Shown in pieces: positions 32,560 to 57,095 of a stretch of 64,000 nt of DNA. Where the stretch lies: NCBI RefSeq assembly GCF_013122565.1, contig NZ_CP053258.1; one strand, 5' to 3'. The position numbers and the translations under genes were made by a program. The notes under the pieces are model-generated. The model had not been told where the DNA came from. It did not search any database and worked only from the letters and a program-made list of their open reading frames with translations. The stretch is from Escherichia coli (GTDB lineage: Bacteria > Pseudomonadota > Gammaproteobacteria > Enterobacterales > Enterobacteriaceae). How positions within the stretch are numbered: position 1 is the first letter of the stretch; each line of letters begins with the position of its first letter.

Positions 32560-32589
32560 AAATATGGCGCTACTAAAATAAATGCGATG

Positions 32590-32617
32590 AGGGAGACTTC
32601 AAAGTCTCCTTTTTTAT
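32590..32617 (+). terminator. yhjX rho-independent terminator
   Basis: Hairpin ggagacttcaaagtctcc followed by a T-run. Confidence 0.7.
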
Positions 32618-32880
32618 GGACACATATTAAAAGAATAATATTATTCACGCATCAAATATATTTCATTTATTCATATATTACATAAATATAAATATATTCC
32701 TAAAAAAATGATCTCAGGAAGCGTTTCTATGTGCAATTAATTGAAGTTGAAGTACATTTTCACTTATTGCAAAAATTAATATTCAGTAAAAACAATTTTC
32801 TTTTATAGCACCATTTGTATAATCTGCGCCCTGTTGTATGAACAACATCAAGCATATTTATCTATATAAATGGAGTTTTA

Positions 32881-33408: not shown

Positions 33409-33491
33409 TCGATCCTGACGGGGCGATCATCTCTCAATGGCAACAGATTATCTGTTGCCATTATTCACACCAATGACTCAGGGACCGAATC

Positions 33492-34178: not shown

Positions 34179-34201
34179 TCCTTTTACAAGGCGCTTTTAC
34201 T

Positions 34202-36733: not shown

Positions 36734-36743
36734 GGATATTCAG

Positions 36744-37796: not shown

Positions 37797-37801
37797 CGGT
37801 C

Positions 37802-38326: not shown

Positions 38327-38334
38327 TTTCACAT

Positions 38335-38362
38335 CTTAGGGGCCAGTTAACTGGCCCTTTTT
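38335..38362 (+). terminator. lpf operon rho-independent terminator
   Basis: Hairpin ggggccagttaactggccc followed by tttttact. Confidence 0.7.
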
Positions 38363-38577
38363 ACTGCTTTTTGTAACGCCAAGTCTCTTTTCAAACTTGC
38401 ATTTTTGTAAATTTGTGCTTCATGCACACTCTTTCCCCACACTTTTTCCCTTTGCTGTGGTCTACTTATTCGCGCGTGTAGATTTTACTTATCTGACTAC
38501 CTCCGCACTTTTCCCCTGCCGGGCCTGAAAAGCCGCTTAGCAGGGTGTTATCACCTGTTTGTCCAGGGTTTGTTTGC

Positions 38578-40269: not shown

Positions 40270-40319
40270 GAGGCCTGCTGACTTTCTCGCCGATCAAAAG
40301 GCATTTTGCTATTAAGGGA

Positions 40320-40348
40320 TTGACGAGGGCGTATCTGCGCAGTAAGAT
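40320..40348 (+). promoter_or_regulatory. proK promoter
   Basis: -35 ttgacg (40320-40325), 17-bp spacer, -10 taagat (40343-40348), GC-rich discriminator gcgccccgc. Confidence 0.55.
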
Positions 40349-40360
40349 GCGCCCCGCATT

Positions 40361-40437
<77 letters not shown>

Positions 40438-40442
40438 ATTTA

Positions 40443-40470
40443 GAAAAACCAGCCTACGGGCTGGTTTTTT
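40443..40470 (+). terminator. proK rho-independent terminator
   Basis: Hairpin ccagcctacgggctgg followed by ttttttgc. Confidence 0.7.
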
Positions 40471-40524
40471 GCTTTCTGCGGCCTGAAGAGGATGAGAACC
40501 TCCGGGGGCTGGGAGGTTCGACTC

Positions 40525-40612
40525 GACGTAGGCCTGATAAGACGCGCCAGCGTCGCATCAGGCAAATGTGCCGGCCCATTGTCGGATGCAGCGTACCCGT
40601 CTTATCCGACCT
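40525..40612. repeat. REP elements between proK and dppA
   Basis: gtaggcctgataagacgcgccagcgtcgcatcaggc and gtcggatgcagcgtacccgtcttatccgacc. Confidence 0.6.
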
Positions 40613-41049
40613 AAACGGCAGCACACCACACATTTCCCTGCCAAATTTGCGCCCCATATCTCACTATCCATTAACGGATTTGTGACAGAAACCATTGTCT
40701 TTTTTTATATTTGCTTAAATCTTTTTTTGCGTTACTTATGGCTGGCGCTGGCATTTTCCGCTGTGCGTTTTAGCGTTCATGGTATTAATCGCTCAGATAT
40801 CCACCTTTTCCTCAGATTTTTTTCATTAAATGCATAAAACTTAATCACCAAATGTTGCTAAATATTAAGCTGATTGTTCTGGTCATGTTGGAGTAGCACA
40901 AATTTCTCTGCTGCAAATAGCTGTTTGAAGTTTTTTTAATCTTTGTTTGTGGATTCTCACCGTTGGTGTAAATCCTGGTTGGCTGTATTGACGTTTTCAC
41001 ATTCTGTTGACAGATTGTAGGTCACGAGGGGCATTTTATGGAGGATCCG

Positions 41050-41188
41050 CACTGTTACACTGATGTTAATTAGTACGGCATCCCCACCTCATAACGTTGA
41101 CCCGACCGGGCAAAAAACAAAAAAGGTCAGGCAGCGACAACCCACTGCAAAGGGTTAAAACAACAAACATCACAATTGGAGCAGAATA
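41050..41188 (+). promoter_or_regulatory. dppA 5' leader with CA-rich stretch (likely GcvB sRNA target region)
   Basis: caaaaaacaaaaaagg...aaaacaacaaacatcacaa just upstream of the RBS. Confidence 0.4.
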
Positions 41189-42796
41189 ATGCGTATTTCC
41201 TTGAAAAAGTCAGGGATGCTGAAGCTTGGTCTCAGCCTGGTGGCTATGACCGTCGCAGCAAGTGTTCAGGCTAAAACTCTGGTTTATTGCTCAGAAGGAT
41301 CTCCGGAAGGGTTTAACCCGCAGCTGTTTACCTCCGGTACCACCTATGACGCCTCTTCCGTACCGCTTTATAACCGCCTGGTTGAATTTAAAATCGGCAC
41401 CACCGAAGTGATCCCGGGCCTCGCTGAAAAGTGGGAAGTCAGCGAAGACGGTAAAACCTATACCTTCCATCTGCGTAAAGGTGTGAAGTGGCACGACAAT
41501 AAAGAATTCAAACCGACGCGCGAAATGAATGCCGATGACGTGGTGTTCTCGTTCGATCGTCAGAAAAACGCGCAAAACCCGTACCATAAAGTTTCTGGCG
41601 GCAGCTACGAATACTTCGAAGGCATGGGCTTGCCGGAGCTGATCAGCGAAGTGAAAAAGGTGGACGACAACACAGTTCAGTTTGTGCTGACTCGCCCAGA
41701 AGCGCCGTTCCTCGCTGACCTGGCAATGGACTTCGCCTCTATTCTGTCAAAAGAATATGCTGACGCGATGATGAAAGCCGGTACACCGGAAAAACTGGAC
41801 CTCAACCCAATCGGCACCGGTCCGTTCCAGTTACAGCAGTACCAAAAAGATTCCCGTATCCGCTACAAAGCGTTTGATGGCTACTGGGGCACCAAACCGC
41901 AGATCGATACGCTGGTCTTCTCTATTACCCCTGACGCTTCCGTGCGTTACGCTAAATTGCAGAAAAATGAATGCCAGGTGATGCCGTACCCGAACCCGGC
42001 AGATATCGCTCGCATGAAGCAGGATAAATCCATCAATCTGATGGAAATGCCGGGGCTGAACGTCGGTTATCTCTCGTATAACGTGCAGAAAAAACCACTC
42101 GATGACGTGAAAGTTCGCCAGGCTCTGACCTACGCGGTGAACAAAGACGCGATCATCAAAGCGGTTTATCAGGGCGCGGGTGTATCAGCGAAAAACCTGA
42201 TCCCGCCAACCATGTGGGGCTATAACGACGACGTTCAGGACTACACCTACGATCCTGAAAAAGCGAAAGCCTTGCTGAAAGAAGCGGGTCTGGAAAAAGG
42301 TTTCTCCATCGACCTGTGGGCGATGCCGGTACAACGTCCGTATAACCCGAACGCTCGCCGCATGGCGGAGATGATTCAGGCTGACTGGGCGAAAGTCGGC
42401 GTGCAGGCCAAAATTGTCACCTACGAATGGGGTGAGTACCTCAAGCGTGCGAAAGATGGCGAGCACCAGACGGTAATGATGGGCTGGACTGGCGATAACG
42501 GGGATCCGGATAACTTCTTCGCCACCCTGTTCAGCTGCGCCGCCTCTGAACAAGGCTCCAACTACTCAAAATGGTGCTACAAACCGTTTGAAGATCTGAT
42601 TCAACCGGCGCGTGCTACCGACGACCACAACAAACGCGTTGAACTGTACAAGCAAGCGCAGGTGGTGATGCACGATCAGGCTCCGGCACTGATCATCGCT
42701 CACTCCACCGTGTTTGAGCCTGTACGCAAAGAAGTTAAAGGCTATGTGGTTGATCCATTAGGCAAACATCACTTCGAAAACGTCTCTATCGAATAA
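41189..42796 (+). CDS. dppA: dipeptide ABC transporter periplasmic binding protein
   Basis: 535-aa ORF with signal peptide; matches DppA. Confidence 0.95.
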   Translation: MRISLKKSGMLKLGLSLVAMTVAASVQAKTLVYCSEGSPEGFNPQLFTSGTTYDASSVPLYNRLVEFKIGTTEVIPGLAEKWEVSEDGKTYTFHLRKGVKWHDNKEFKPTREMNADDVVFSFDRQKNAQNPYHKVSGGSYEYFEGMGLPELISEVKKVDDNTVQFVLTRPEAPFLADLAMDFASILSKEYADAMMKAGTPEKLDLNPIGTGPFQLQQYQKDSRIRYKAFDGYWGTKPQIDTLVFSITPDASVRYAKLQKNECQVMPYPNPADIARMKQDKSINLMEMPGLNVGYLSYNVQKKPLDDVKVRQALTYAVNKDAIIKAVYQGAGVSAKNLIPPTMWGYNDDVQDYTYDPEKAKALLKEAGLEKGFSIDLWAMPVQRPYNPNARRMAEMIQADWAKVGVQAKIVTYEWGEYLKRAKDGEHQTVMMGWTGDNGDPDNFFATLFSCAASEQGSNYSKWCYKPFEDLIQPARATDDHNKRVELYKQAQVVMHDQAPALIIAHSTVFEPVRKEVKGYVVDPLGKHHFENVSIE

Positions 42797-42946
42797 TTAA
42801 AAGCCATACCCGGTGGCGCTGTGCCTCTGCGTGCAGCGCCATCCGGCAGCAATACTTCATTCCCTGCCCGACCTGGGCGGGAATTGATTTGTGAGCAATA
42901 CAGACACGCAGTTCCAGGCTGCGGGTCACTACAGAGAATCCGGGTT

Positions 42947-43966
42947 ATGTTGCAGTTTATTCTCCGACGTTTGGGACTCGTCATCCCCACGTTTATCGGT
43001 ATTACCCTTCTCACATTTGCCTTTGTCCACATGATCCCGGGCGATCCGGTGATGATCATGGCGGGCGAACGTGGGATCTCCCCAGAGCGTCACGCGCAGC
43101 TGCTGGCTGAACTCGGCTTAGATAAACCGATGTGGCAGCAGTATCTCCATTACATTTGGGGCGTTATGCATGGCGATCTAGGCATTTCAATGAAAAGCCG
43201 CATCCCTGTTTGGGAAGAGTTCGTGCCGCGCTTCCAGGCCACGCTGGAACTTGGTGTCTGCGCGATGATTTTTGCTACGGCAGTCGGTATTCCGGTTGGT
43301 GTGCTGGCTGCGGTTAAACGCGGTTCCATTTTCGATCACACGGCGGTTGGTCTGGCACTGACCGGCTACTCGATGCCGATCTTCTGGTGGGGCATGATGC
43401 TGATCATGCTGGTTTCAGTACACTGGAACCTGACGCCCGTCTCCGGTCGCGTGAGCGACATGGTGTTCCTCGATGACTCCAATCCGTTAACCGGTTTTAT
43501 GCTGATCGACACCGCCATCTGGGGTGAAGATGGCAACTTTATCGATGCCGTTGCCCATATGATCCTGCCCGCCATTGTGCTGGGTACTATTCCGCTGGCG
43601 GTCATTGTGCGTATGACACGCTCCTCGATGCTGGAAGTGCTGGGTGAAGATTACATCCGCACCGCGCGCGCCAAAGGGCTAACCCGCATGCGGGTGATTA
43701 TCGTCCATGCGCTGCGTAACGCGATGCTGCCGGTAGTGACCGTTATCGGCCTCCAGGTGGGAACATTGCTGGCGGGGGCGATTCTGACCGAAACCATCTT
43801 CTCGTGGCCCGGTCTGGGGCGCTGGTTGATTGACGCACTGCAACGCCGCGACTATCCGGTAGTGCAGGGCGGCGTATTGCTGGTGGCGACGATGATTATC
43901 CTCGTCAACTTGCTGGTCGATCTGCTGTACGGCGTGGTGAACCCGCGTATTCGTCATAAGAAGTAA
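42947..43966 (+). CDS. dppB: dipeptide ABC transporter permease
   Basis: Start at MLQFILRRLGLVIPTFIG (codon 43 of track ORF); 339 aa. Confidence 0.9.
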   Translation: MLQFILRRLGLVIPTFIGITLLTFAFVHMIPGDPVMIMAGERGISPERHAQLLAELGLDKPMWQQYLHYIWGVMHGDLGISMKSRIPVWEEFVPRFQATLELGVCAMIFATAVGIPVGVLAAVKRGSIFDHTAVGLALTGYSMPIFWWGMMLIMLVSVHWNLTPVSGRVSDMVFLDDSNPLTGFMLIDTAIWGEDGNFIDAVAHMILPAIVLGTIPLAVIVRMTRSSMLEVLGEDYIRTARAKGLTRMRVIIVHALRNAMLPVVTVIGLQVGTLLAGAILTETIFSWPGLGRWLIDALQRRDYPVVQGGVLLVATMIILVNLLVDLLYGVVNPRIRHKK

Positions 43967-43975
43967 GGGGACATC

Positions 43976-44878
43976 ATGTCACAGGTTACTGAAAATAAAG
44001 TGATTAGCGCACCGGTGCCGATGACCCCGTTACAGGAGTTCTGGCACTATTTTAAACGCAACAAAGGCGCGGTCGTCGGGCTGGTTTACGTCGTCATCGT
44101 GCTGTTTATCGCGATCTTTGCCAACTGGATTGCACCCTATAACCCGGCGGAACAGTTCCGCGATGCACTGCTCGCCCCGCCAGCCTGGCAGGAAGGCGGC
44201 AGCATGGCGCACTTGCTGGGCACCGATGACGTCGGTCGTGATGTGCTGTCGCGCCTGATGTACGGTGCGCGATTGTCACTGCTGGTTGGCTGTCTGGTGG
44301 TGGTGTTATCGCTGATTATGGGCGTTATTCTCGGCCTGATCGCCGGTTACTTCGGCGGCCTGGTCGATAACATCATCATGCGCGTGGTCGATATCATGCT
44401 GGCGCTGCCAAGTCTGCTGTTGGCACTGGTGCTGGTGGCGATTTTCGGCCCGTCGATTGGTAACGCCGCGCTGGCGCTGACCTTCGTTGCCTTGCCGCAC
44501 TATGTGCGCTTAACACGCGCCGCCGTGCTGGTGGAGGTGAATCGCGATTACGTTACCGCGTCTCGCGTGGCAGGTGCCGGGGCGATGCGTCAGATGTTTA
44601 TTAACATCTTCCCGAACTGCCTTGCGCCTCTGATTGTTCAGGCGTCGCTCGGTTTCTCTAACGCCATTCTCGATATGGCTGCTCTTGGTTTCCTCGGCAT
44701 GGGGGCACAGCCGCCAACGCCTGAGTGGGGCACCATGCTCTCCGACGTGTTGCAGTTCGCGCAAAGCGCCTGGTGGGTCGTGACCTTCCCTGGTCTGGCG
44801 ATCCTGCTGACGGTGCTGGCATTTAACCTGATGGGTGACGGTCTGCGTGACGCGCTCGATCCCAAACTGAAGCAGTAA
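43976..44878 (+). CDS. dppC: dipeptide ABC transporter permease
   Basis: 300-aa permease matching DppC. Confidence 0.9.
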
Positions 44879-44888
44879 GAGGTTCGAG

Positions 44889-45872
44889 ATGGCGTTATTA
44901 AATGTAGATAAATTATCGGTGCATTTCGGCGACGAAAGCGCACCGTTCCGCGCCGTAGACCGCATCAGCTACAGCGTAAAACAGGGCGAAGTGGTCGGAA
45001 TTGTGGGTGAGTCTGGCTCCGGTAAGTCGGTCAGTTCACTGGCTATTATGGGGCTGATTGATTATCCGGGCCGCGTAATGGCGGAAAAGCTGGAGTTTAA
45101 CGGTCAGGATTTACAGCGTATCTCAGAAAAAGAGCGCCGCAACCTGGTGGGTGCCGAAGTGGCGATGATCTTCCAGGACCCGATGACCAGCCTTAACCCG
45201 TGCTACACAGTGGGTTTCCAGATTATGGAAGCGATTAAGGTGCATCAGGGCGGTAATAAGAGCACTCGTCGTCAGCGGGCGATTGACCTGCTGAATCAGG
45301 TCGGTATTCCCGATCCGGCATCGCGTCTGGATGTTTACCCGCATCAGCTTTCCGGCGGCATGAGCCAGCGCGTGATGATCGCCATGGCGATTGCCTGTCG
45401 GCCAAAACTGCTGATTGCCGATGAACCAACCACTGCGCTGGACGTGACCATTCAGGCGCAAATCATTGAACTACTGCTGGAGCTACAGCAGAAAGAGAAC
45501 ATGGCGCTGGTGTTAATTACCCATGACCTGGCGCTGGTGGCGGAAGCGGCGCATAAAATTATCGTGATGTATGCCGGCCAGGTGGTGGAAACGGGCGATG
45601 CGCACGCCATCTTCCATGCGCCGCGTCACCCGTATACCCAGGCATTGCTGCGTGCGCTGCCGGAATTTGCTCAGGATAAAGAACGTCTGGCGTCGTTGCC
45701 AGGTGTTGTTCCCGGCAAGTATGACCGTCCGAACGGCTGCCTGCTTAACCCGCGCTGCCCCTATGCCACTGACAGATGCCGCGCTGAAGAACCGGCGTTG
45801 AATATGCTCGCTGACGGGCGTCAGTCCAAATGCCATTACCCACTTGATGATGCCGGGAGGCCGACACTATGA
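44889..45872 (+). CDS. dppD: dipeptide ABC transporter ATP-binding protein
   Basis: 327-aa ORF; Walker A GESGSGKS, signature LSGGMSQR. Confidence 0.9.
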
Positions 45873-46873
45873 GTACGCATGAGGCCACCTCGCAACAACC
45901 GCTGTTGCAGGCTATCGACCTGAAAAAACATTATCCGGTGAAGAAAGGTTTGTTCGCACCGGAACGTCTGGTGAAGGCGCTGGATGGCGTTTCGTTTAAC
46001 CTTGAACGTGGCAAAACGCTGGCGGTAGTAGGTGAATCTGGCTGCGGTAAATCGACCCTCGGTCGGTTGCTGACGATGATTGAAACGCCCACCGGCGGCG
46101 AGCTGTATTACCAGGGGCAGGATCTGCTCAAGCACGATCCGCAGGCGCAGAAGTTGCGTCGGCAGAAAATCCAGATTGTCTTCCAGAACCCTTACGGTTC
46201 GCTGAATCCACGTAAAAAAGTCGGGCAAATTCTTGAGGAGCCGCTGCTGATTAATACCAGCTTAAGCAAAGAACAGCGTAGGGAAAAAGCCCTGTCGATG
46301 ATGGCGAAAGTCGGCCTGAAAACCGAGCACTATGACCGCTATCCGCATATGTTCTCCGGCGGTCAGCGTCAGCGTATCGCCATCGCCCGTGGTCTGATGC
46401 TCGACCCGGATGTGGTGATTGCCGATGAGCCGGTTTCCGCGCTGGACGTCTCAGTGCGTGCGCAGGTGCTCAACCTGATGATGGATTTGCAGCAGGAACT
46501 GGGGCTTTCTTATGTCTTTATCTCGCACGACCTGTCGGTTGTGGAGCACATTGCTGATGAAGTGATGGTGATGTACCTGGGCCGCTGCGTGGAGAAAGGG
46601 ACGAAGGACCAAATCTTCAATAACCCGCGCCACCCGTACACTCAGGCGCTGCTCTCCGCCACACCACGCCTGAACCCGGACGATCGTCGCGAACGCATCA
46701 AACTCACCGGTGAACTGCCAAGCCCGCTCAATCCACCGCCGGGTTGCGCCTTCAACGCCCGCTGTCGTCGGCGCTTCGGCCCCTGCACTCAGTTACAGCC
46801 ACCGCTGAAAGATTACGGCGGTCAACTGGTGGCCTGCTTTGCCGTTGATCAGGATGAAAATCCGCAGCGTTAA
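45869..46873 (+). CDS. dppF: dipeptide ABC transporter ATP-binding protein
   Basis: 334-aa ORF; Walker A GESGCGKS; overlaps dppD stop by 4 nt. Confidence 0.9.
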
Positions 46874-46902
46874 CTCACAAAACCGGGGCCATGCGCTCCG
46901 GT

Positions 46903-48174
46903 TTACTCAATCAGCTTCAACAGTGGCGACAAGCATAGCAAAATGCCGTACAGCAGAATTAGCCAGGCTTTAAACCCGCGAAGTTTTTCCAGTTGTGCGA
47001 CTTTATAGATCAGGAAAAACGGAATGAGGCACGACACAATGCCATATAACGGGCTTCCCAACTGAAAGAACACCAGCACCGATACACGAAACGAAACCCA
47101 AATCGTCAACGTAATGACGATAAAAGCGCAGATCGCCAGAGTCAGTACGCGTGAGTTAATTTTCTTGGTATCAATAATTCGGCTTAACAGATTGAGAATA
47201 ATGCCTTTAATGGCCTCGTGGAAACCGAGATAAATGCCAAAGAATGCGGTGAGTACGGCAAAGATATTCAGCACCGTAGAGGTGATATGAATGATATGCC
47301 CAGGGATCACCTGCGCGGCCAGCGCCAGTGCCGAGATATTTTGTTCAAAGGCAGAAACGGCTTCTTCGTGGCTAATTGAGAAGGTAAACGAAAAAGCAAA
47401 AAACAGGATCACCGCGATGAGCGTGACATAACTAATTCGGTGGGTACGCAGCGCGAGCCGGGTTGCCAGTACTTTATCCGCTTCCCGTTTACGATAGGCA
47501 ATATTCATTGGGTTAAGTACCTGAATAAATACTGCAGAAAAGAAGCAAAATGGAATGGTAAGCAGGACATCGCGGAAAAAGACGGAGGCTTGTGGGAAGG
47601 CGGTTATATTGGCGAAATTCCAGTGCGGGATCATCGCAAAACCGAACACGACAATAATCCCTACTTTGACCACCACCATTGGCCCAGAAATCTTAAACAG
47701 TAATCGTTCACCACCAGACGCAATCGCCACCAGTACGGCGAAAATGGCGACTTTATAAAGTAGAGATTGTGAAAGATCGGCATCGGTTAAACCGAAGGTT
47801 TTCAGGTACGAGGCGCTGTCGAAAACCACGGAGAGAGAGTAGATAAAAATCCCGTGGATAATCATCAAAAAGTAGATAACTCCGAGGAAAATTCCCCAGT
47901 TCTTCCCCAGGTAATGACTGATAATATCGGTGTAGTCATTACAGGAATCGCTTTCAGAAAGGGTTTTTAAATAAATGTCCTGTACTACCCAGGTGGCAGG
48001 ATAAGCAATGATCGCTGCGGTAATAAATACCCAAATTCCCTTCAAGCCAATTTGTACTGGCATCAGCACGGTTCCGGCACCAATCGCCATGCCTATGCAT
48101 AATAAAACCCAGCCGAAGTCGTAGCGTGTAAACGGCAATTTCTGATCGTGTTTCGGTAGTGTGTTGTGCTGCAT
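46903..48174 (-). CDS. yhjV: amino acid transporter family membrane protein YhjV
   Basis: Start at [20 protein letters not shown] (codon 22 of track ORF 46903-48237); 423 aa. Confidence 0.85.
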
Positions 48175-48534
48175 AAAGTCCTGTCCAGAAAGAAGTCGGC
48201 CTCGCAAAAATGAATAAACCCAGTTTCTCTTGCGCAACAGGTGGAGAAGTCGAATACGCAGTATGTAAAAAATGAGGCAACAGATTCACTGGGGAGGTCG
48301 CGAGGAGGCGCAATTCTACAAAATTGCGCATTTCACTACCAGTCTGGAGTCAGCCCGGATATGAACTGCAACTATTGCAAATAAAGAAATTAAGCTGGAA
48401 GGCATCACGCAATGAGGAAGATTGTCGGGTGCTGAGGGTAAAAAGCAATCGTAAAATCAGCGGCAAGCCGGAAGGGTTCCGGTGAGGCGCAATGTTGCGG
48501 GGGCTTTATCCCTGGTGGCATTGGTTGCTGGAGA

Positions 48535-48601
48535 GAGAAAACCCCCGCACGTTGCAGGTATGCACCTGACAACACCACGGGGGCTAATCTTGACTCTAGA
48601 C
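48535..48601 (-). ncRNA. rdlD: Rdl antisense RNA, copy 1
   Basis: Minus strand reads gtctagagtcaagattagcccccgtggtgttgtcaggtgcatacctgcaacgtgcgggggttttctc, matching Rdl as recalled (terminal hairpin plus U tail). Confidence 0.55.
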
Positions 48602-48649
48602 CACTCAAGAATAGCCGCGAAACGTTGTCATTACAACACAGGCGGCTAT

Positions 48650-48757
48650 ATGACGCTCGCAGAGCTGGGCATGGCCTTCTGGCATGATTTAGCGGCTCCG
48701 GTCATTGCTGGCATTCTTGCCAGTATGATCGTGAACTGGCTGAATAAGCGGAAGTAA
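48650..48757 (+). CDS. ldrD: LdrD type I toxin peptide, copy 1
   Basis: 35-aa MTLAELGMAFWHDLAAPVIAGILASMIVNWLNKRK. Confidence 0.85.
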   Translation: MTLAELGMAFWHDLAAPVIAGILASMIVNWLNKRK

Positions 48758-48807
48758 CGTGTCATGCGGGCGTCAGGCTGCCGTAATGGCAATTTGCGCC
48801 CGGACCA

Positions 48808-48838
48808 GGCCGCAGGGGTGAAACTCTGCGGCCTTTTT
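48808..48838 (+). terminator. ldr terminator, copy 1
   Basis: Hairpin ggccgcaggggtgaaactctgcggcc followed by tttttc. Confidence 0.65.
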
Positions 48839-49017
48839 CGTAAGAAAAATGCAACGGTTGCAAGCGGATAATATTCTGCGGAATGCGCAGCACAGAGTGA
48901 AGACGTGACGGATTTCGGAACAGAAAAACAGTCGTAGAATCAGCGGCAAGCCGGAAAGGTTCCGGTGAGGCGCAATGTTGCGGGGGCTTTATCCCTGGTG
49001 GCATTGGTTGCTGGAGA

Positions 49018-49084
49018 GAGAAAACCCCCGCACGTTGCAGGTATGCACCTGACAACATTACGGGGGCTAATCTTGAACCCAAAC
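49018..49084 (-). ncRNA. rdlD: Rdl antisense RNA, copy 2
   Basis: Same position within unit 2; 3' hairpin conserved, 5' portion differs from copy 1. Confidence 0.5.
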
Positions 49085-49132
49085 AACTCAAGAATAGCCG
49101 CGAAACGTTGTCATTACAACACAGGCGGCTAT

Positions 49133-49240
49133 ATGACGCTCGCAGAACTGGGCATGGCCTTCTGGCATGATTTAGCGGCTCCGGTCATTGCTGGCATTCT
49201 TGCCAGTATGATCGTGAACTGGCTGAACAAGCGGAAGTAA
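49133..49240 (+). CDS. ldrD: LdrD type I toxin peptide, copy 2
   Basis: Identical 35-aa peptide; synonymous differences only. Confidence 0.85.
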   Translation: MTLAELGMAFWHDLAAPVIAGILASMIVNWLNKRK

Positions 49241-49290
49241 CGTGTCATGCGGGCGTCAGGCTGCCGTAATGGCAATTTGCGCCCGGACCA

Positions 49291-49321
49291 GGCCGCAGGG
49301 GTGAAACTCTGCGGCCTTTTT
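49291..49321 (+). terminator. ldr terminator, copy 2
   Basis: Same hairpin as copy 1. Confidence 0.65.
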
Positions 49322-49500
49322 CGTAAGAAAAATGCAACGATTGCAAGCGGATAATATTCTGCGGAATGCGCAGCACAGAGTGAAGACGTGACGGATTCCG
49401 GAGCAGAAAAACAGTCGTAGAATCAGCGGCAAGCCGGAAAGGTTCCGGTGAGGCGCAATGTTGCGGGGGCTTAATCCCTGGTGGCATTGGTTGCTGGAGA

Positions 49501-49567
49501 GAGAAAACCCCCGCACGTTGCAGGTATGCACCTGACAACATCACGGGGGCCATTCTTGAACCTGAAC
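49501..49567 (-). ncRNA. rdlD: Rdl antisense RNA, copy 3
   Basis: Same position within unit 3; 5' portion differs from copies 1 and 2. Confidence 0.5.
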
Positions 49568-49615
49568 AACTCAAGAATAGCCGCGAAACGTTGTCATTAC
49601 AACACAGGCGGCTAT

Positions 49616-49723
49616 ATGACGCTCGCAGAACTGGGCATGGCCTTCTGGCACGATTTAGCGGCTCCGGTCATTGCTGGCATTCTTGCCAGTATGATTGTGA
49701 ACTGGCTGAATAAGCGGAAGTAA
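49616..49723 (+). CDS. ldrD: LdrD type I toxin peptide, copy 3
   Basis: Identical 35-aa peptide; synonymous differences only. Confidence 0.85.
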   Translation: MTLAELGMAFWHDLAAPVIAGILASMIVNWLNKRK

Positions 49724-49773
49724 CGTGTCATGCGGGCGTCAGGCTGCCGTAATGGCAATTTGCGCCCGGATCA

Positions 49774-49804
49774 GGCCGCAGGGGGTAAACTCTGCGGCCT
49801 TTTT
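49774..49804. terminator. ldr terminator, copy 3 (also convergent bcsG terminator)
   Basis: Hairpin ggccgcagggggtaaactctgcggcc followed by tttttcg; 5 nt from the bcsG stop. Confidence 0.65.
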
Positions 49805-49809
49805 CGTTC

Positions 49810-51489
49810 TTACTGCGGGTAAGGCACCCAGTCGCCGCCGTTCAGGCGAACGTACGGTTTATCCTGGTATTGAATAACTACTGCATTTGAGTTCTCGGAG
49901 ACCGGTGCTGTTTGTGGCAACCCACTGGTGAGTTTTTTCCAGTCAACATTGTCTTCGGTGAAAATCTTGCCATCAAGAACGCGAACCACCAGATCGGAGA
50001 TAGCCAGGAAGCTGCTCGGTTGGTCGATAACAATCGGTGCCCCCTGATGTGGTGCCTTCATGCCGAAGAATTTCACCCCAACGGGGACGTCGGTGATAGA
50101 CGGGCTAGGGATATCACGTAGGCCAGATACCTGCATTCTGTCGCCCTTCAGCGCGCCGCCGTGTTCCGGCACCACGACCACCATCACTTTACGACCCGAT
50201 TTCTCCAGTTCAGTAAAGAAGGCGTCCAGTTCATCAAAGAATTTCTGCGCCCGCGCTTTGTAATCCGCTGTTTTGCTGACGCCCGGATAATGGTTGCCGT
50301 CATGCAGTGGAAGTGTGTTGTAGAACGTGGCACTACGGCTGTTTTTATCTTTTTCGGTAACGTCCAGCCAGCGGTTAAGCACGGCGGTATCGTCATAAAC
50401 CGGCGAACCATCAAAGCCCAGCAAAATAATCGGCAGATTTGTTTGATCCATCAATTCAGTCTGCATGCCGCCATTTTCGCGAACTTCTTTCAAAAAACCG
50501 CCGAACTGGCCGTTATGTCCCATCATCAGGTGCTGGGTAAAGCCCAGTTTCGACAGGTTATCAAATAGATAGCAGTCGTTATTTGCCGGTTGATACAGAT
50601 TAGTGTGCGAAGTCTGCCCGCAGCTGGCGCGCAGTAAACGGATCGCCGCCGGGCCACTGTAGGAGGTGGCGGAGTTAAAGTTCTTGAACTCAATATCGAA
50701 ATGCGACCACAGCGGATGCGACATCAACCCGGCGGCTTCTATATCCGACCAGGAAAGCGAACAGATATTAATCACCAGTAGTTCAAATGGCTGAGCATCA
50801 GCGGGCAGCGAAGACGGGAAGGTCGATTTACGTTTCGCCTCCGCGTTATAGAAATTATTCAGCCAGGCGTTAAGGTTCGCCGTTGTTGGCGGTGCAGTTT
50901 GTGCGGGCATATCACCCACTACCGGTGCGCCACCCGTCGCCGCAACGGTTGCCGCTGCGTTACCACCCGTCGTTGTTACAGTGGTCGTCGGTTGTCCGGC
51001 TGGCCACAAGGAGAAACTTGGTCCCGCCAGGGTAAGTACGTTCAGCCATAGCAGTATGGCAACCACAAAAACGGTAATGCGAATCCATTGTGACAGGAAT
51101 AACCAGGCCACTAATAAAACAAAAATGGCCCCAATCATCTGCCAGTTAATAAAGCGTGTGACAAGGTCGATTAAATAATCGGTACTGAACCCCGCCACCT
51201 GCGAACCCTGGCTCATTATGCTTTCCGGGCCAGGCAACCAGGTGTCATGCCAGAACAAAGCAAAGCCGATCGGCAGGGCAATCCAGTGGCGCAAGCGATG
51301 CAGGCTGTAACGCGGAATGGGCATCAGCAGAAACGCGGCAAACACCAAATTGAGGAGCGGATGGAAGTTAAGATATCCCGCCCACAACAGGCCGAACTTA
51401 ACCAGAAAATAGAAGTTCCAGCCGGAAAGGCCGCGCCAGTATTGCCAGAGGGAAGAAGGCATGGCGGTATTATGCGTAAATTGAGTCAT
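49810..51489 (-). CDS. bcsG: cellulose biosynthesis protein BcsG
   Basis: 559-aa membrane protein matching BcsG (YhjU). Confidence 0.9.
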
Positions 51490-51677
51490 TTTTTGGTTGC
51501 CCTGGCTTTTTCCGTGCGGCGTAACGTCCCGGCCGGTTTAACATAACGAGGTTTAGCAAAGAACAAACGTAAGGTGTCGCGAATGCGTCGCAAAGAGTGC
51601 CGCGCCAGATAGCCCAGCGGGAAAAATATCAGTGCGCAAACGACAATAATTTCAATGATATCGCTGATGGTCATCAT
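51486..51677 (-). CDS. bcsF: cellulose biosynthesis protein BcsF
   Basis: 63-aa single-TM protein; overlaps bcsG and bcsE by 4 nt each. Confidence 0.8.
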
Positions 51678-53245
51678 GATGAGCGCTCCACAGCATCATC
51701 TAACAGTCGCATGGGTTCTGGTATTCGTCGCCAGTGGCGACCATCGTGCTCGGCATTGATGACCGGTTTAGAACTTTGCGTTAAAGGCAGCGGCATGCCC
51801 CATTGTTCTGGGGCAAGCAGGCGCATCTGCACCAGCTCGGCACTGATTTGATCATCTTCAAACCAGACCATACGGTTTGAGAAAATGTCGCCAGTAGGCA
51901 ATGGGAAAATATGATTCAACGCGGTATCCAGATCGTTAATCCGACAGAATGAGAGAAACAGCACCAGCCGATTACCGCCAATGGTCATGATATCGCCGGT
52001 ACGGTTAGGGCGACATAGCGTCAGGGCTTGCTCAACGCGGATACCCGGTACCGGACGTAGGGCAACCAGAACGCCTTTACCGTGGGCTGGCAGGAGAGGG
52101 TTATTCATCATGTTGTTGACGGCATTACAGAACACATCCCACTTCTGGAAACCACGCAGTTTGAGCGGCTGGGTCATTGACAGCAAGGTAGTGATATCTT
52201 CCGGCACATAGCGACTAAACTTCTGCCCTTGCACGCTTTCGATCATCGTCAGACAGCGGGAGAGTGGCGCATTCCACGGGATAACCATATTTGCACCGCA
52301 GGCTAATAACAAACGTTCATCGGTGGCGCGCAGGCTAGCGGTATTTTCCCGTACGAGGATTTTCATCGCACTACCGCGCTGGCGACGCAGAGTATGAATG
52401 CTGCGGGCCAGTGGCTCGATTTGTGCATTTTGCTGTAAAGAAAAGACTACCGTCGCCGCCTGAGCGGTACGGGCTTCATTGAACAGGACTTCGTTATTGT
52501 TGAACAGTTGCCAGTGTTCCGATAGCGGCGGCGCACCTTCCAGTACAGCAACATTACTCAGAATGCGTTTTTCGTCGCTGCGTGGTTGGATCTCCGCCTC
52601 TTCGCTTTGAACTAATGTCCAGATACCATTTTGTTGCTGAACGCTAAGCTGCTGACGGGCGCTGACCCCTTTTTCGTTGCACCAGAAGGCAATATCCAGC
52701 AAATGTTGGTCGCCCTGAAAACGCAAACTGGCAAGACCAAAAAGTGAACGGTATTCCTCAAGCAACAATGAAAATTGTTTATCGTTATTATTTCCGGGAT
52801 TAATTACCAAAAGCGAACAATGGTTTAACCTGCTCCATTTATTCAATTTATCCAACCATGAGCGAAGCCGCTCGGCAGGAATGTTTTGCCATGCGTTATT
52901 TGCGCAAACAAGAATAAAAAGGTAATTATGGGGATCAATAGAACACTGCAAATCACGGGCCAAATAGTATAGACCTTTTTCATGATTTAGCATCGAAAAT
53001 AATTTAATTTTTTCCGGCCCTTGAGAATCATCTAATTGAAAGATTTTCTCCGGATCGCTGTCCATGCTAATGACCGCGACGTGTGCGGTTTCAGCCTGGG
53101 ATGCAATTGTTTGATTCGCCAGACTGATAGCATCTTCATGGCGATCGACGTTAAACCACCAGACGCCGCCTGCTGGCATATGTCGCAGCTCATCCCATAA
53201 TGATGAGATACCGATAGAGAATACAGGGTCCACAATGTCCCTCAT
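51674..53245 (-). CDS. bcsE: cellulose biosynthesis protein BcsE (c-di-GMP binding)
   Basis: 523-aa ORF matching BcsE (YhjS). Confidence 0.9.
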
Positions 53246-53517
53246 GTCACCATTTTGTCTGATTATCAGTTTACTAGCGAAAGCTAAGAAATAAACCTAC
53301 CATTGAAATTAAAACTTATCAGATTTAGCATGTGAATCAATTTAGCAGGTCATAAGACGTGTGATTTTAGTCTTTTCGTTTTTAACTTTTTCTGTTGCGT
53401 AACGGAAAGTCAAAAAGTGAGCAAATTCCCGTCTCGCCGTAAACAATAAACCGGCGAAATGCTCACGGTTAGAATTGTCTTATGAATGGTGCAGTTATTT
53501 CATAGGGATCAAGCAAA
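53246..53517. promoter_or_regulatory. divergent bcsEFG / bcsRQABZC promoter region
   Basis: 272-bp AT-rich spacer between divergent operons; sites not mapped. Confidence 0.45.
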
Positions 53518-53706
53518 ATGAATAACAATGAACCAGATAATCTGCCTGATCCCGCGATAGGCTATATCTTCCAGAATGATATTTTGGCGTTAAAGCAGGC
53601 ATTTTCACTGCCTGATATTGATTATGCCGATATTTCCCAACGCGAACAGTTGGCCGCGGCATTAAAACGCTGGCCGTTGCTGGCAGAGTTTGCGCAACAA
53701 AAGTAG
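53518..53706 (+). CDS. bcsR: cellulose biosynthesis protein BcsR
   Basis: 62-aa ORF matching BcsR (YhjR). Confidence 0.8.
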   Translation: MNNNEPDNLPDPAIGYIFQNDILALKQAFSLPDIDYADISQREQLAAALKRWPLLAEFAQQK

Positions 53707-53717
53707 GGGATTGGTGA

Positions 53718-54470
53718 ATGGCCGTACTGGGATTGCAGGGGGTGCGGGGAGGCGTGGGGACAACAACCATCACCGCCGCATTAGCCTGGTCATTACAAAT
53801 GTTGGGAGAAAATGTCCTGGTGGTCGATGCCTGCCCGGACAATTTGTTGCGCCTGTCATTTAATGTTGATTTTATCCACCGTCAGGGCTGGGCCAGAGCT
53901 ATGCTGGATGGTCAGGACTGGCGTGACGCTGGGTTGCGCTACACCTCGCAGCTCGATTTGCTGCCTTTTGGTCAGTTATCCATTGAAGAACAAGAAAATC
54001 CACATCACTGGCAAACCCGGTTGAGCGATATTTGCTCCGGCTTACAGCAACTAAAATCCAGCGGGCGTTACCAGTGGATTTTAATCGACTTACCGCGTGA
54101 TGCCTCGCAGATAACCCACCAGCTGCTGAGTTTGTGCGATCACTCGCTGGCAATCGTCAATGTGGATGCCAACTGCCATATCCGACTGCATCAGCAAGCA
54201 CTGCCGGATGGCGCACATATTTTGATTAATGACTTCTGTATTGGCAGTCAGGTTCAGGACGATATTTACCAGCTTTGGTTGCAAAGCCAGCGCCGATTAC
54301 TGCCGATGCTCATTCATCGTGATGAAGCGATGGCTGAATGCCTGGCGGCTAAGCAACCAGTCGGTGAATACCGCAGTGATTCGCTGGCGGCTGAAGAGAT
54401 ACTGACGCTGGCGAACTGGTGCCTGTTGAACTATTCCGGGCTGAAAACGCCAGTCGGGAGTAAATCATGA
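53718..54470 (+). CDS. bcsQ: cellulose biosynthesis protein BcsQ (MinD/ParA-like ATPase), intact
   Basis: 250-aa ORF with deviant Walker A GVRGGVGTT; codon 6 is TTG (53733-53735). Confidence 0.9.
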   Translation: MAVLGLQGVRGGVGTTTITAALAWSLQMLGENVLVVDACPDNLLRLSFNVDFIHRQGWARAMLDGQDWRDAGLRYTSQLDLLPFGQLSIEEQENPHHWQTRLSDICSGLQQLKSSGRYQWILIDLPRDASQITHQLLSLCDHSLAIVNVDANCHIRLHQQALPDGAHILINDFCIGSQVQDDIYQLWLQSQRRLLPMLIHRDEAMAECLAAKQPVGEYRSDSLAAEEILTLANWCLLNYSGLKTPVGSKS

Positions 54471-57085
54471 GTATCCTGACCCGGTGGTTGCTTATCCCGC
54501 CGGTCAACGCGCGGCTTATCGGGCGTTATCGCGATTATCGTCGTCACGGTGCGTCGGCTTTCAGCGCGACGCTCGGCTGTTTCTGGATGATCCTGGCCTG
54601 GATTTTTATTCCGCTGGAGCACCCGCGCTGGCAGCGTATTCGCGCAGAACATAAAAACCTGTATCCGCATATCAACGCCTCGCGTCCGCGTCCGCTGGAC
54701 CCGGTCCGTTATCTCATTCAAACATGCTGGTTACTGATCGGTGCATCGCGCAAAGAAACGCCGAAACCGCGCAGGCGGGCATTTTCAGGTCTGCAGAATA
54801 TTCGTGGACGTTACCATCAATGGATGAACGAGCTGCCTGAGCGCGTTAGCCATAAAACACAGCATCTTGATGAGAAAAAAGAGCTCGGCCATTTGAGTGC
54901 CGGGGCGCGGCGGTTGATCCTCGGTATCATCGTCACCTTCTCGCTGATTCTGGCGTTAATCTGCGTTACTCAGCCGTTTAACCCGCTGGCGCAGTTTATC
55001 TTCCTGATGCTGCTGTGGGGGGTAGCGCTGATCGTACGGCGGATGCCGGGGCGCTTCTCGGCGCTAATGTTGATTGTGCTGTCGCTGACCGTTTCTTGCC
55101 GTTATATCTGGTGGCGCTACACCTCTACGCTGAACTGGGATGATCCGGTTAGCCTGGTGTGCGGGCTTATTCTGCTCTTCGCCGAAACGTACGCGTGGAT
55201 TGTGCTGGTGCTCGGCTACTTCCAGGTAGTATGGCCGCTGAATCGTCAGCCGGTGCCATTGCCGAAAGATATGTCGCTGTGGCCGTCGGTGGATATCTTT
55301 GTCCCGACTTACAACGAAGATCTCAACGTGGTGAAAAATACCATTTACGCCTCGCTGGGTATCGACTGGCCGAAAGACAAGCTGAACATCTGGATCCTTG
55401 ATGACGGCGGCAGGGAAGAGTTTCGCCAGTTTGCGCAAAACGTGGGGGTGAAATATATCGCCCGTACTACTCATGAACATGCGAAAGCGGGCAACATCAA
55501 CAATGCGCTGAAATATGCCAAAGGCGAGTTCGTGTCGATTTTCGACTGCGACCACGTACCAACGCGATCGTTCCTGCAAATGACCATGGGCTGGTTCCTG
55601 AAAGAAAAACAACTGGCGATGATGCAGACGCCGCACCACTTCTTCTCGCCGGACCCGTTTGAACGCAACCTGGGGCGTTTTCGTAAAACACCGAACGAAG
55701 GCACGCTGTTCTATGGTTTGGTGCAGGATGGCAACGATATGTGGGACGCCACTTTCTTCTGCGGTTCCTGTGCGGTGATTCGCCGTAAGCCGCTGGATGA
55801 AATTGGCGGCATTGCTGTCGAAACCGTGACTGAAGATGCGCATACTTCTTTGCGTTTGCACCGTCGTGGCTATACCTCCGCGTATATGCGTATTCCGCAG
55901 GCGGCGGGGCTGGCGACCGAAAGTCTGTCGGCGCATATCGGTCAGCGTATTCGCTGGGCGCGCGGGATGGTACAAATCTTCCGTCTCGATAACCCGCTTA
56001 CCGGTAAAGGGCTGAAGTTTGCTCAGCGGCTATGTTACGTCAACGCCATGTTCCACTTCTTGTCGGGCATTCCACGGCTGATCTTCCTGACTGCGCCGCT
56101 GGCGTTCCTGCTGCTTCATGCCTACATCATCTACGCGCCTGCATTGATGATCGCCCTGTTTGTGCTGCCGCATATGATTCATGCCAGCCTGACTAACTCG
56201 AAGATCCAGGGCAAATATCGCCACTCGTTCTGGAGTGAAATCTACGAAACGGTTCTGGCGTGGTATATCGCACCACCGACGCTGGTGGCGCTGATTAACC
56301 CGCACAAAGGCAAATTTAACGTCACCGCCAAAGGTGGACTGGTGGAAGAAGAGTACGTCGACTGGGTGATCTCGCGGCCCTACATCTTCCTTGTTCTGCT
56401 CAACCTGGTGGGCGTTGCGGTAGGCATCTGGCGCTACTTCTATGGCCCGCCAACCGAGATGCTCACCGTGGTCGTCAGTATGGTGTGGGTATTCTACAAC
56501 CTGATTGTTCTTGGCGGCGCAGTTGCGGTATCGGTAGAAAGCAAACAGGTACGCCGATCGCACCGCGTGGAGATGACGATGCCCGCGGCAATTGCCCGCG
56601 AAGATGGTCACCTCTTCTCGTGTACCGTTCAGGATTTCTCCGACGGTGGTTTGGGGATCAAGATCAACGGTCAGGCGCAGATTCTGGAAGGGCAGAAAGT
56701 GAATCTGTTGCTTAAACGTGGTCAGCAGGAATACGTCTTCCCGACCCAGGTGGCGCGCGTGATGGGTAATGAAGTTGGGCTGAAATTAATGCCGCTCACC
56801 ACCCAGCAACATATCGATTTTGTGCAGTGTACGTTTGCCCGTGCGGATACATGGGCGCTCTGGCAGGACAGCTATCCGGAAGATAAGCCGCTGGAAAGTC
56901 TGCTGGATATTCTGAAGCTCGGCTTCCGTGGCTACCGCCATCTGGCGGAGTTTGCGCCTTCTTCGGTGAAGGGCATATTCCGTGTGCTGACTTCTCTGGT
57001 TTCCTGGGTTGTATCGTTTATTCCGCGCCGCCCGGAGCGGAGCGAAACGGCACAACCATCGGATCAGGCTTTGGCTCAACAATGA
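54467..57085 (+). CDS. bcsA: cellulose synthase catalytic subunit (c-di-GMP activated)
   Basis: 872-aa GT-2 protein with QxxRW (QRIRWARG) and C-terminal PilZ region; overlaps bcsQ stop by 4 nt. Confidence 0.95.
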   Translation: MSILTRWLLIPPVNARLIGRYRDYRRHGASAFSATLGCFWMILAWIFIPLEHPRWQRIRAEHKNLYPHINASRPRPLDPVRYLIQTCWLLIGASRKETPKPRRRAFSGLQNIRGRYHQWMNELPERVSHKTQHLDEKKELGHLSAGARRLILGIIVTFSLILALICVTQPFNPLAQFIFLMLLWGVALIVRRMPGRFSALMLIVLSLTVSCRYIWWRYTSTLNWDDPVSLVCGLILLFAETYAWIVLVLGYFQVVWPLNRQPVPLPKDMSLWPSVDIFVPTYNEDLNVVKNTIYASLGIDWPKDKLNIWILDDGGREEFRQFAQNVGVKYIARTTHEHAKAGNINNALKYAKGEFVSIFDCDHVPTRSFLQMTMGWFLKEKQLAMMQTPHHFFSPDPFERNLGRFRKTPNEGTLFYGLVQDGNDMWDATFFCGSCAVIRRKPLDEIGGIAVETVTEDAHTSLRLHRRGYTSAYMRIPQAAGLATESLSAHIGQRIRWARGMVQIFRLDNPLTGKGLKFAQRLCYVNAMFHFLSGIPRLIFLTAPLAFLLLHAYIIYAPALMIALFVLPHMIHASLTNSKIQGKYRHSFWSEIYETVLAWYIAPPTLVALINPHKGKFNVTAKGGLVEEEYVDWVISRPYIFLVLLNLVGVAVGIWRYFYGPPTEMLTVVVSMVWVFYNLIVLGGAVAVSVESKQVRRSHRVEMTMPAAIAREDGHLFSCTVQDFSDGGLGIKINGQAQILEGQKVNLLLKRGQQEYVFPTQVARVMGNEVGLKLMPLTTQQHIDFVQCTFARADTWALWQDSYPEDKPLESLLDILKLGFRGYRHLAEFAPSSVKGIFRVLTSLVSWVVSFIPRRPERSETAQPSDQALAQQ

Positions 57086-57095
57086 TGATAACGCG

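What the first reader, a model, noticed from the sequence alone, without database searches (positions are those of the whole stretch)
48400..49808. LDR-D type I toxin-antitoxin locus present as three tandem copies
Between yhjV and bcsG there are three units of about 483 bp, each with an Rdl-like antisense RNA, a 35-codon ldr ORF and a terminator. K-12 carries a single LDR-D unit here as far as I recall, its triplicated LDR locus being elsewhere. The array looks like an unequal-crossover expansion and is prone to collapse or expansion in assemblies.
Basis: partly seen in the sequence, partly recalled or inferred. Interest (0 to 1): 0.5.

Follow-up and report, generated by a model that had tools for sequence, protein, structure and literature searches.

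The report
Three tandem Ldr/Rdl toxin-antitoxin units
The stretch between yhjV and bcsG holds three intact tandem copies of the known E. coli Ldr toxin / Rdl antisense-RNA module, and this is an ordinary allele carried by about a third of complete E. coli genomes.

Summary
Window 48441-49807 is a 2.8-copy, 483-bp tandem repeat. Each unit has a 35-codon ldr ORF that matches Pfam Ldr_toxin over its full length, an Rfam rdlD antisense RNA opposite the ldr leader, and an intrinsic terminator. The flanking genes are yhjV and bcsG.

The interpretation needs correcting in two places.

- **The allele is common.** Among 5,426 complete E. coli genomes, about 39% have one unit at this locus, 7% two, 37% three and 17.5% four. 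RefSeq already annotates them as Ldr family toxins.
- **The array is old.** The window's units differ from each other at 12-20 of 401 positions. Unit 1 differs from K-12 ldrD at only 5, and unit 2 differs from unit 2 of another strain at 1. The three window units never group together in bootstraps.

The constant 483-bp period across alleles fits unequal crossing-over as the way copy number changes. It does not show which state came first, and K-12's single unit may be a collapse. An assembly artefact is unlikely but cannot be tested without reads.

All three units look functional, with only synonymous differences in the ORF. This is already known and of low interest.

The parts
48441..49807 (.). 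Tandem array of 2.8 x 483 bp. Unit 1 is 48441-48923, unit 2 is 48924-49406, and unit 3 is 49407-49807 without a trailing spacer.
   Evidence: TRF; the repeat finder; alignment
48650..48757 (+). ldr ORF of unit 1, 35 codons plus stop
   Evidence: Pfam Ldr_toxin PF13940 E=1e-26, positions 1-35 of 35
49133..49240 (+). ldr ORF of unit 2, same peptide
49616..49723 (+). ldr ORF of unit 3, same peptide
48536..48601 (-). Rdl antisense RNA of unit 1, opposite the ldr 5' leader and 49 nt upstream of the ldr start codon
   Evidence: Rfam RF01813 87.0 bits; stable stem-loop with a free 5' tail, z = -4.0
49019..49084 (-). Rdl antisense RNA of unit 2
   Evidence: Rfam RF01813 90.4 bits; fold z = -4.8
49502..49567 (-). 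Rdl antisense RNA of unit 3
   Evidence: Rfam RF01813 83.7 bits; fold z = -4.2
48807..48840 (+). Intrinsic terminator of ldr unit 1. The same element lies at 49290-49323 and 49773-49806.
   Evidence: helix 14 of the consensus fold has compensatory changes
48452..48457 (+). Predicted ldr -10 hexamer, TAAAAT in unit 1 and TAGAAT at 48935-48940 and 49418-49423. This is inferred; the transcription start was not mapped here.
   Evidence: The block CGTA(A/G)(A/T)AT is conserved between D-type and K-12 A/B/C-type units, inside otherwise divergent sequence
48608..48636 (-). Predicted Rdl promoter: TTGTAA, 17 nt, TATTCT, then 6 nt to the Rdl 5' end. The same element lies at 49091-49119 and 49574-49602. 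Inferred.
   Evidence: Sequence read. It matches 8 of 12 consensus positions, below the threshold of the scan.
48492..48569 (+). 25-codon upstream ORF in the ldr leader with a GAGG Shine-Dalgarno sequence. Its 3' third is covered by Rdl. The same ORF lies at 48975-49052 and 49458-49535.
   Evidence: the start and stop are kept in K-12 LDR-A/B and in other genera
48842..48923 (.). 82-nt inter-unit spacer, repeated at 49325-49406. It is about 55% identical to the sequence upstream of unit 1 (48359-48440).
46903..48174 (-). yhjV, left flanking gene
   Evidence: RefSeq annotation of matching genomes
49810..51489 (-). bcsG, right flanking gene

Best explanation
The region holds three paralogous, apparently intact copies of the LDR-D type Ldr/Rdl type I toxin-antitoxin module. 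They sit at the conserved yhjV-bcsG site as one common allele of an old copy-number polymorphism of one to four units. Each unit is predicted to make an ldr mRNA of about 380 nt with a leader of about 190 nt. In the predicted fold of that mRNA, the ldr Shine-Dalgarno sequence and start codon are paired with the 3' UTR. Each unit also makes a 66-nt Rdl RNA from the opposite strand, complementary to the leader. By analogy with K-12 ldrD/rdlD, Rdl pairing keeps translation of the 35-residue membrane toxin off. The proposed route is through a leader ORF, as in hok/mok/sok. Copy number changes by unequal recombination between the 483-bp units. Shown here: the sequence features, family matches, conserved fold, and population and phylogenetic distribution. 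Inferred: promoters, transcript ends, expression of all three units, and the way Rdl represses.
For: The repeat is established. The family matches are Rfam rdlD three times at 84-90 bits and Pfam Ldr_toxin over the full length at E=1e-26. The units are 95.5-98.1% identical to K-12 LDR-D and 79-82% identical to LDR-A/B/C. The peptide is identical to the one encoded at the ldr genes that RefSeq annotates as WP_001295224.1, 'type I toxin-antitoxin system toxin Ldr family protein'. All four ORF differences among the units are synonymous. The predicted mRNA is highly structured, z = -7.8. The consensus fold over 38 units from at least 8 genera has 98.4% of cells paired, against 36-51% when partners are slid. 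It has 13 pairs with compensatory changes against 6.5 +/- 1.8 in shuffles, and helices 9-11 pair the start region with the 3' UTR. For population frequency, 61% of genomes have at least 2 units, 17.5% have 4, and 22 of 60 sampled have 3. Unit 1 sequences of E. coli strains, K-12 included, cluster together with 75% bootstrap, and the window's three units never do (0 of 300). The yhjV-ldr-bcsG arrangement is shared with Salmonella and Citrobacter. The mechanism comes from the literature: LdrD is toxic and RdlD represses it; RdlD overlaps the leader rather than the ribosome-binding site; and a leader ORF, ldrX, has been proposed (PMC4147584, PMC8167048). Lineage-specific duplications of the LdrD group are described in PMC2887945.
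Against: There are no expression data for this strain. The sigma-70 scan found no promoter at its threshold, and I could not find a convincing -35 for ldr. Units 2 and 3 have a different upstream spacer from unit 1, so they may be expressed differently. The leader ORF I found ends 80 nt before the ldr start, whereas reviews describe ldrX as overlapping the ldr start region, so the two may not be the same. The consensus structure was derived from the same alignment on which it was counted. NCBIfam returned no family for the peptide.
Confidence: 0.9

Rival explanations
1. Assembly artefact: the strain really has one or two units, and the assembler mis-inferred the copy number of a 483-bp repeat.
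For: Tandem repeats longer than short reads can be mis-counted. No read data are available here.
Against: The three units are distinguishable at 12-20 of 401 positions, which is not what a duplicated consensus looks like. The same three-unit arrangement aligns in one piece at 97-98.7% identity in about a third of complete E. coli genomes. The whole array is only 1.4 kb.
Confidence: 0.03
2. Recent, strain-specific expansion by unequal crossing-over from a single K-12-like LDR-D unit.
For: K-12 and about 39% of genomes have one unit. Salmonella and several Citrobacter species have one unit at the same site. Alleles with 2, 3 and 4 units share the 483-bp period.
Against: The window's units differ from each other by 3-5%, but from positional counterparts in other strains by 0.25-1.5%. 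The three window units never cluster together, in 0 of 300 bootstraps. Escherichia sp. E1V33 and a divergent E. coli-like genome also carry two units. The inter-unit spacer is only about 55% identical to the sequence upstream of unit 1, which points to an old duplication.
Confidence: 0.04
3. Only one unit is functional and the other two are decaying relics.
For: Units 2 and 3 have a different upstream region from unit 1. Unit 3's Rdl scores lowest, at 83.7 bits, and its leader ORF carries a Tyr-to-Asn change. Some chromosomal type I loci are known to degenerate (PMC2887945).
Against: All three ORFs are intact and encode the same peptide, with only synonymous differences. All three Rdl copies are far above the gathering score and fold stably. 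The terminators, the -10 block and the Rdl promoter are kept in each unit.
Confidence: 0.08

Closest known systems
E. coli K-12 LDR-D (ldrD/rdlD, b4453/b4454) between bcsG and yhjV
   Same: The chromosomal site is the same. Unit 1 is 98.1% identical over 483 nt and has an identical Rdl variable region. The layout is the same: Rdl opposite the leader, a 35-codon ORF, then a terminator.
   Different: K-12 has one unit and the window has three. The window peptide has Leu where K-12 LdrD has Phe at position 3. Units 2 and 3 have their own 82-nt upstream spacer.
E. coli K-12 LDR-A/B/C triplet (ldrABC/rdlABC) between kdsA and chaA
   Same: It is also a three-unit tandem array of the same module. The leader is highly conserved, including the 25-codon upstream ORF and the Rdl stem.
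   Different: It sits at a different locus and has a period of 535 bp rather than 483 bp. Nucleotide identity is only 79-82%. The peptides differ (MTLAQFAMIFWHDLAAPILAGIITAAIVSWWRNRK).
Three-unit LDR-D arrays annotated in RefSeq E. coli genomes, for example Z1322HEC0005, APEC O1 and MNCRE44
   Same: The locus, unit count and period are the same. The peptide is identical to the one at genes annotated WP_001295224.1. Identity over 3 kb is 97.7-98.7%.
   Different: The only difference is point substitutions. No genome in the collection is closer than 98.7% to the window at this locus.
hok/mok/sok and Ibs/Sib type I systems
   Same: The logic is shared: a small hydrophobic toxin, a cis-encoded antisense RNA, and an mRNA folded so that the start region is hidden. 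Ibs/Sib also occurs as tandem copies, with antisense specificity residing in variable regions (PMC2943612).
   Different: The toxin families are unrelated. Pfam finds only Ldr_toxin and Rfam finds only rdlD.

Membership tests
Ldr/Rdl (LDR) type I toxin-antitoxin | A 35-residue hydrophobic peptide of the Ldr family | tested here: met
   Pfam PF13940 Ldr_toxin, E=1e-26, positions 1-35 of 35. The peptide is identical in all three units. NCBIfam gave no hit.
Ldr/Rdl (LDR) type I toxin-antitoxin | [quoted passage not shown] | tested here: met
   Rfam RF01813 matches three times over its full length, at 84-90 bits against a gathering score of 50. Each match ends 49 nt upstream of the ldr start codon. 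Stable folds are shown.
Ldr/Rdl (LDR) type I toxin-antitoxin | A long structured ldr mRNA with an intrinsic terminator | tested here: met
   Terminators are found. The predicted 379-nt mRNA folds with z = -7.8. The fold is conserved over 38 units with compensatory changes. Transcript ends are predicted, not mapped.
Ldr/Rdl (LDR) type I toxin-antitoxin | The peptide is toxic when over-produced, and Rdl represses its synthesis | not testable with these tools
   This is known for K-12 LdrD/RdlD from the literature (PMC4147584). It needs experiments for these copies.
LDR-D subgroup (as opposed to LDR-A/B/C) | Located between yhjV and bcsG | tested here: met
LDR-D subgroup (as opposed to LDR-A/B/C) | Closer in sequence to K-12 LDR-D than to LDR-A/B/C | tested here: met
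   95.5-98.1% identity to LDR-D against 79-82% to LDR-A/B/C. The peptide differs from LdrD at 1 of 35 residues.
hok/sok type I toxin-antitoxin | A Hok/Gef family peptide and a Sok RNA | tested here: not met
   Pfam reports only Ldr_toxin. Rfam at gathering threshold reports only rdlD in 46000-52000.

The most novel reading that the evidence does not exclude
The three Rdl RNAs may have diverged at their target-recognition nucleotides, so that each represses only its own ldr mRNA, as Sib RNAs do with ibs mRNAs. The array would then be three insulated toxin-antitoxin modules rather than three redundant copies, and copy number (1-4) would set the number of independent switches. The Rdl copies differ at 5-7 of 66 positions. 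All of these lie in the 5' tail (3-8), at positions 15 and 17 near the base of the stem, or at positions 26-27, where the Rfam consensus has an internal loop. Variable sites among the window's units are enriched in the Rdl segment: 9 of 66 against 14 of 335, Fisher p = 0.006. The enrichment disappears when units from more divergent Escherichia are included (p = 0.73).
Probability: 0.25. Interest if true: 0.35.

Novelty: already known. Interest (0 to 1): 0.12.

Why it matters
It matters little beyond correct annotation. The Ldr/Rdl family, its tandem organisation and its lineage-specific duplications have been described (Kawano 2002 as cited in PMC4147584; Fozo 2010, PMC2887945). RefSeq already annotates two, three or four Ldr genes at this site in thousands of genomes. 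There are three practical points. K-12 is not representative of the species at this locus. Three Rdl genes should be annotated here alongside the three ldr ORFs. Short-read pipelines should expect one to four units at yhjV-bcsG.

Tried and rejected
- **Promoter scan.** The sigma-70 scan found no promoter in 48200-49900 at its threshold. I then read candidate -10 and -35 elements by eye and from conservation. I found no convincing ldr -35.
- **NCBIfam.** It returned no family for the 35-residue peptide. Pfam did.
- **In-frame upstream ATG.** I considered the ATG at 48561, inside the Rdl target, as a candidate for the proposed leader ORF ldrX. I rejected it because K-12 LDR-A/B/C lack it. The 25-codon ORF at 48492 is conserved instead, but it does not overlap the ldr start as reviews describe for ldrX.
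- **Ancestral state.** I tried to settle whether one or several units is ancestral with a neighbour-joining tree of units. Positional orthology within E. coli has 75% bootstrap, but across species only 22-28%, so the direction stays open.
- **Coverage as a measure of copy number.** I tried to read copy number from the coverage figure of the whole-locus search. That failed because overlapping pieces are joined, so even one-unit genomes show 95% coverage. I used the span in the record, a junction-specific query and inspected examples instead.
- **Kawano 2012.** The review (doi 10.4161/rna.22757) is not held.
- **Python scripts.** Searches failed because both K-12 loci are stored in one file. The ldrA/B/C pattern matched nothing. 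Both were redone.

Full report
**Observation**

The sequence between 48441 and 49807 is a tandem repeat with a 483-bp period. It has 2.8 copies, 96% matches, no indels and a TRF score of 2559. The repeat finder places three copies in register, spaced 483 and 483 bp. Aligning the three units together with the 82 nt upstream of each shows two things. The repeated body of 401 nt is about 95-97% identical between units (12-20 differences). Units 2 and 3 are preceded by an 82-nt spacer that is only about 55% identical to the sequence upstream of unit 1. The third unit runs directly into the bcsG flank after its terminator, which is why the count is 2.8 rather than 3.0.

**Content of each unit**

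- **Rdl.** Rfam at gathering threshold finds rdlD (RF01813) three times on the minus strand, each covering all 66 model positions. The matches are at 48536-48601 (87.0 bits), 49019-49084 (90.4) and 49502-49567 (83.7), against a gathering score of 50.
- **ldr ORF.** A 35-codon ORF on the plus strand begins 49 nt downstream of each Rdl segment, at 48650-48757, 49133-49240 and 49616-49723. All three encode MTLAELGMAFWHDLAAPVIAGILASMIVNWLNKRK. This matches Pfam Ldr_toxin over its whole length (E=1e-26). NCBIfam gave nothing.
- **Terminator.** Each ORF is followed by an 11-bp GC-rich stem and a T run.
- **Rdl fold.** Each Rdl folds into a stable stem-loop with a free 5' tail, z from -4.0 to -4.8.
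- **Flanks.** The genes on either side are yhjV and bcsG, named from the RefSeq annotation of matching genomes.

**Comparison with K-12**

MG1655 has one ldrD/rdlD between bcsG and yhjV, and ldrA/B/C with rdlA/B/C at a 535-bp period between kdsA and chaA. The window's units are 98.1%, 97.0% and 95.5% identical to K-12 LDR-D and 79-82% identical to LDR-A/B/C. All three are therefore D-type. The peptide differs from K-12 LdrD at one residue (Leu3 for Phe3). It is identical to the peptide encoded at the genes RefSeq annotates as WP_001295224.1 in other strains.

**How common the three-unit allele is**

I ran three searches against 5,426 complete E. coli genomes.

- **Junction query.** A 215-nt query spanning the end of one unit, the spacer and the start of the next is matched over at least 80% of its length in 3,304 genomes, or 61%. 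These have at least two tandem units. Another 2,106 genomes match only the unit ends.
- **Whole-locus query.** A 3-kb query has a best place below 80% coverage in 952 genomes, or 17.5%. All four examples of that class that I opened carry four units. One of them has an insertion-sequence remnant inside the array.
- **Systematic sample.** A sample of 60 records taken down the ranking, read from the span of the match and the number of annotated Ldr genes, gives 23 with one unit, 4 with two, 22 with three and 10 in the four-unit class.

The overall distribution is roughly 39% with one unit, 7% with two, 37% with three and 17% with four. Three units is about as common as one, and RefSeq already annotates these genes. 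The collection is not a random sample of the species, so these are frequencies among sequenced complete genomes only.

**Age of the array**

Over the 401-nt body, the window's units differ from each other at 14, 20 and 12 positions. In contrast:

- Unit 1 differs from K-12 LDR-D at 5 positions and from unit 1 of strain Z1322HEC0005 at 6.
- Unit 2 differs from units 2 and 3 of that strain at 1 and 2 positions.

In a neighbour-joining tree, the first units of four E. coli strains, K-12 included, form a clade with 75% bootstrap. The window's three units never group together (0 of 300). The array was therefore not generated recently in this strain from a single K-12-like unit.

A pattern scan of one genome per species finds the yhjV-ldr-bcsG arrangement well beyond E. 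coli:

- One unit in Salmonella enterica subsp. arizonae and diarizonae, in Citrobacter amalonaticus and C. sedlakii, and in Escherichia whittamii.
- Two units in Escherichia sp. E1V33 and in a divergent E. coli-like genome.
- Separate tandem arrays next to bcsG in Kluyvera and in the Klebsiella oxytoca group.

This suggests that a single unit at this site is ancient and that amplification arose more than once. Within E. coli, the multi-unit state appears older than the divergence among the strains compared. K-12's single unit is of the unit 1 type, so it could be a collapse. Cross-species positional orthology has only 22-28% bootstrap, so the direction is not settled. The constant 483-bp period in alleles with two, three and four units fits unequal recombination as the process that changes copy number.

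**Whether all three units are functional**

Several observations suggest they are.

- The four differences among the ORFs are all synonymous.
- Each unit keeps the block CGTA(A/G)AAT. This block is also conserved in K-12 LDR-A/B/C within otherwise divergent sequence, so it is the likely ldr -10.
- Each unit keeps a possible Rdl promoter (TTGTAA, 17 nt, TATTCT, 6 nt to the Rdl 5' end). It scores 8 of 12, below the threshold of the scan, which found no promoter.

No transcript data are available, so expression of each unit is inferred.

**Mechanism**

The literature establishes that LdrD over-production kills E. coli and that RdlD represses it. It also establishes that RdlD overlaps the leader rather than the ribosome-binding site. 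A leader ORF, ldrX, coupled to ldrD translation has been proposed but not proven (PMC4147584, PMC8167048).

My analysis adds the following.

- **Structured mRNA.** The predicted 379-nt ldr mRNA of unit 1 is far more structured than shuffles, z = -7.8.
- **Conserved fold.** A consensus fold over 38 units from at least eight genera has 98.4% of cells paired, against 36-51% when the partners are slid. It has 13 pairs with compensatory changes, against 6.5 +/- 1.8 in shuffles.
- **Hidden start region.** In that fold the ldr Shine-Dalgarno sequence and first codons pair with the 3' UTR (helices 9-11). This resembles fold-back inhibition in hok mRNA.
- **Caveat.** The structure was predicted on the same alignment on which it was counted.
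- **Leader ORF.** A 25-codon ORF with a GAGG Shine-Dalgarno sequence lies in each leader (48492-48569 in unit 1). Its start and stop are conserved in K-12 LDR-A/B and in other genera. It ends inside the Rdl target, 80 nt before the ldr start, so I cannot say it is the published ldrX.

**Variation among the Rdl copies**

The three Rdl RNAs differ at 5-7 positions. All of these lie in the 5' tail (3-8), at positions 15 and 17 near the base of the stem, or at positions 26-27, where the Rfam consensus has an internal loop. Variable sites among the window's units are enriched in the Rdl segment: 9 of 66 against 14 of 335, p = 0.006. The enrichment is not seen when units from more divergent Escherichia are added (p = 0.73).

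In the Ibs/Sib system, variable regions carry cognate specificity (PMC2943612). The same could hold here, but it is untested.

**Verdict**

This is a correctly recognised member of a known family at a known site, in a common allelic state. The implied rarity and the idea of a recent expansion are not supported. An assembly artefact is unlikely, because the units are distinguishable and the arrangement is widespread, but it cannot be excluded without reads. Novelty is "already known" and interest is low.

Noticed in passing
window 27667-64000, especially 32558-38395: No complete E. coli genome in the collection is nearly identical to the window. The best identities are 98.7% (47600-50600 and 52000-62000) and 93.4% over 30000-46000. 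The long polar fimbriae (lpf) operon segment, about 32558-38395, does not align by megablast to the closest strain. The host seems to belong to a poorly sampled lineage or carries a divergent lpf variant.
   Followed up: partly
window 48492-48569, 48975-49052, 49458-49535 (+): Each ldr leader holds a 25-codon upstream ORF (MLRGLYPWWHWLLERENPRTLQVCT) with a GAGG Shine-Dalgarno sequence. Its start and stop are conserved in K-12 LDR-A/B and in other genera. K-12 LDR-C has a 1-nt deletion in it, and unit 3 here has Tyr6Asn. Its relation to the proposed ldrX is unclear.
   Followed up: partly
window 48367-48379, 48850-48862, 49333-49345: A 13-bp palindrome, TGCAAnnnTTGCA, lies about 85 nt upstream of each predicted ldr -10. 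It is conserved although the surrounding spacer is only about 55% identical between unit 1 and units 2/3. It may be a regulator binding site.
   Followed up: no
window 48464-48842 and alignment A2: The ldr mRNA has a conserved long-range fold in which the Shine-Dalgarno and start region pairs with the 3' UTR. Compensatory changes support it across 38 units from Escherichia, Salmonella, Citrobacter, Pseudocitrobacter and Kluyvera.
   Followed up: yes
L047 (Kluyvera sichuanensis), L050 (K. ascorbata), L018/L044 (Klebsiella oxytoca group): Tandem LDR units next to bcsG also occur in other genera, with different periods of about 478-532 bp. This points to independent amplification at the same site.
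   Followed up: partly
L035 (NZ_JABWSY010000055.1, 503 bp): A 503-bp contig labelled Bacillus sp. carries an E. coli-type ldrD unit (MPFAELGMAFWHDLAAPVIAGILASMIVNWLNKRK). This is most likely contamination of that assembly.
   Followed up: no
L055 4512-5546 (E. coli O103:H2 strain 20151001): An insertion-sequence remnant, annotated as an integrase core domain pseudogene, sits inside a four-unit LDR-D array between units 2 and 3.
   Followed up: no
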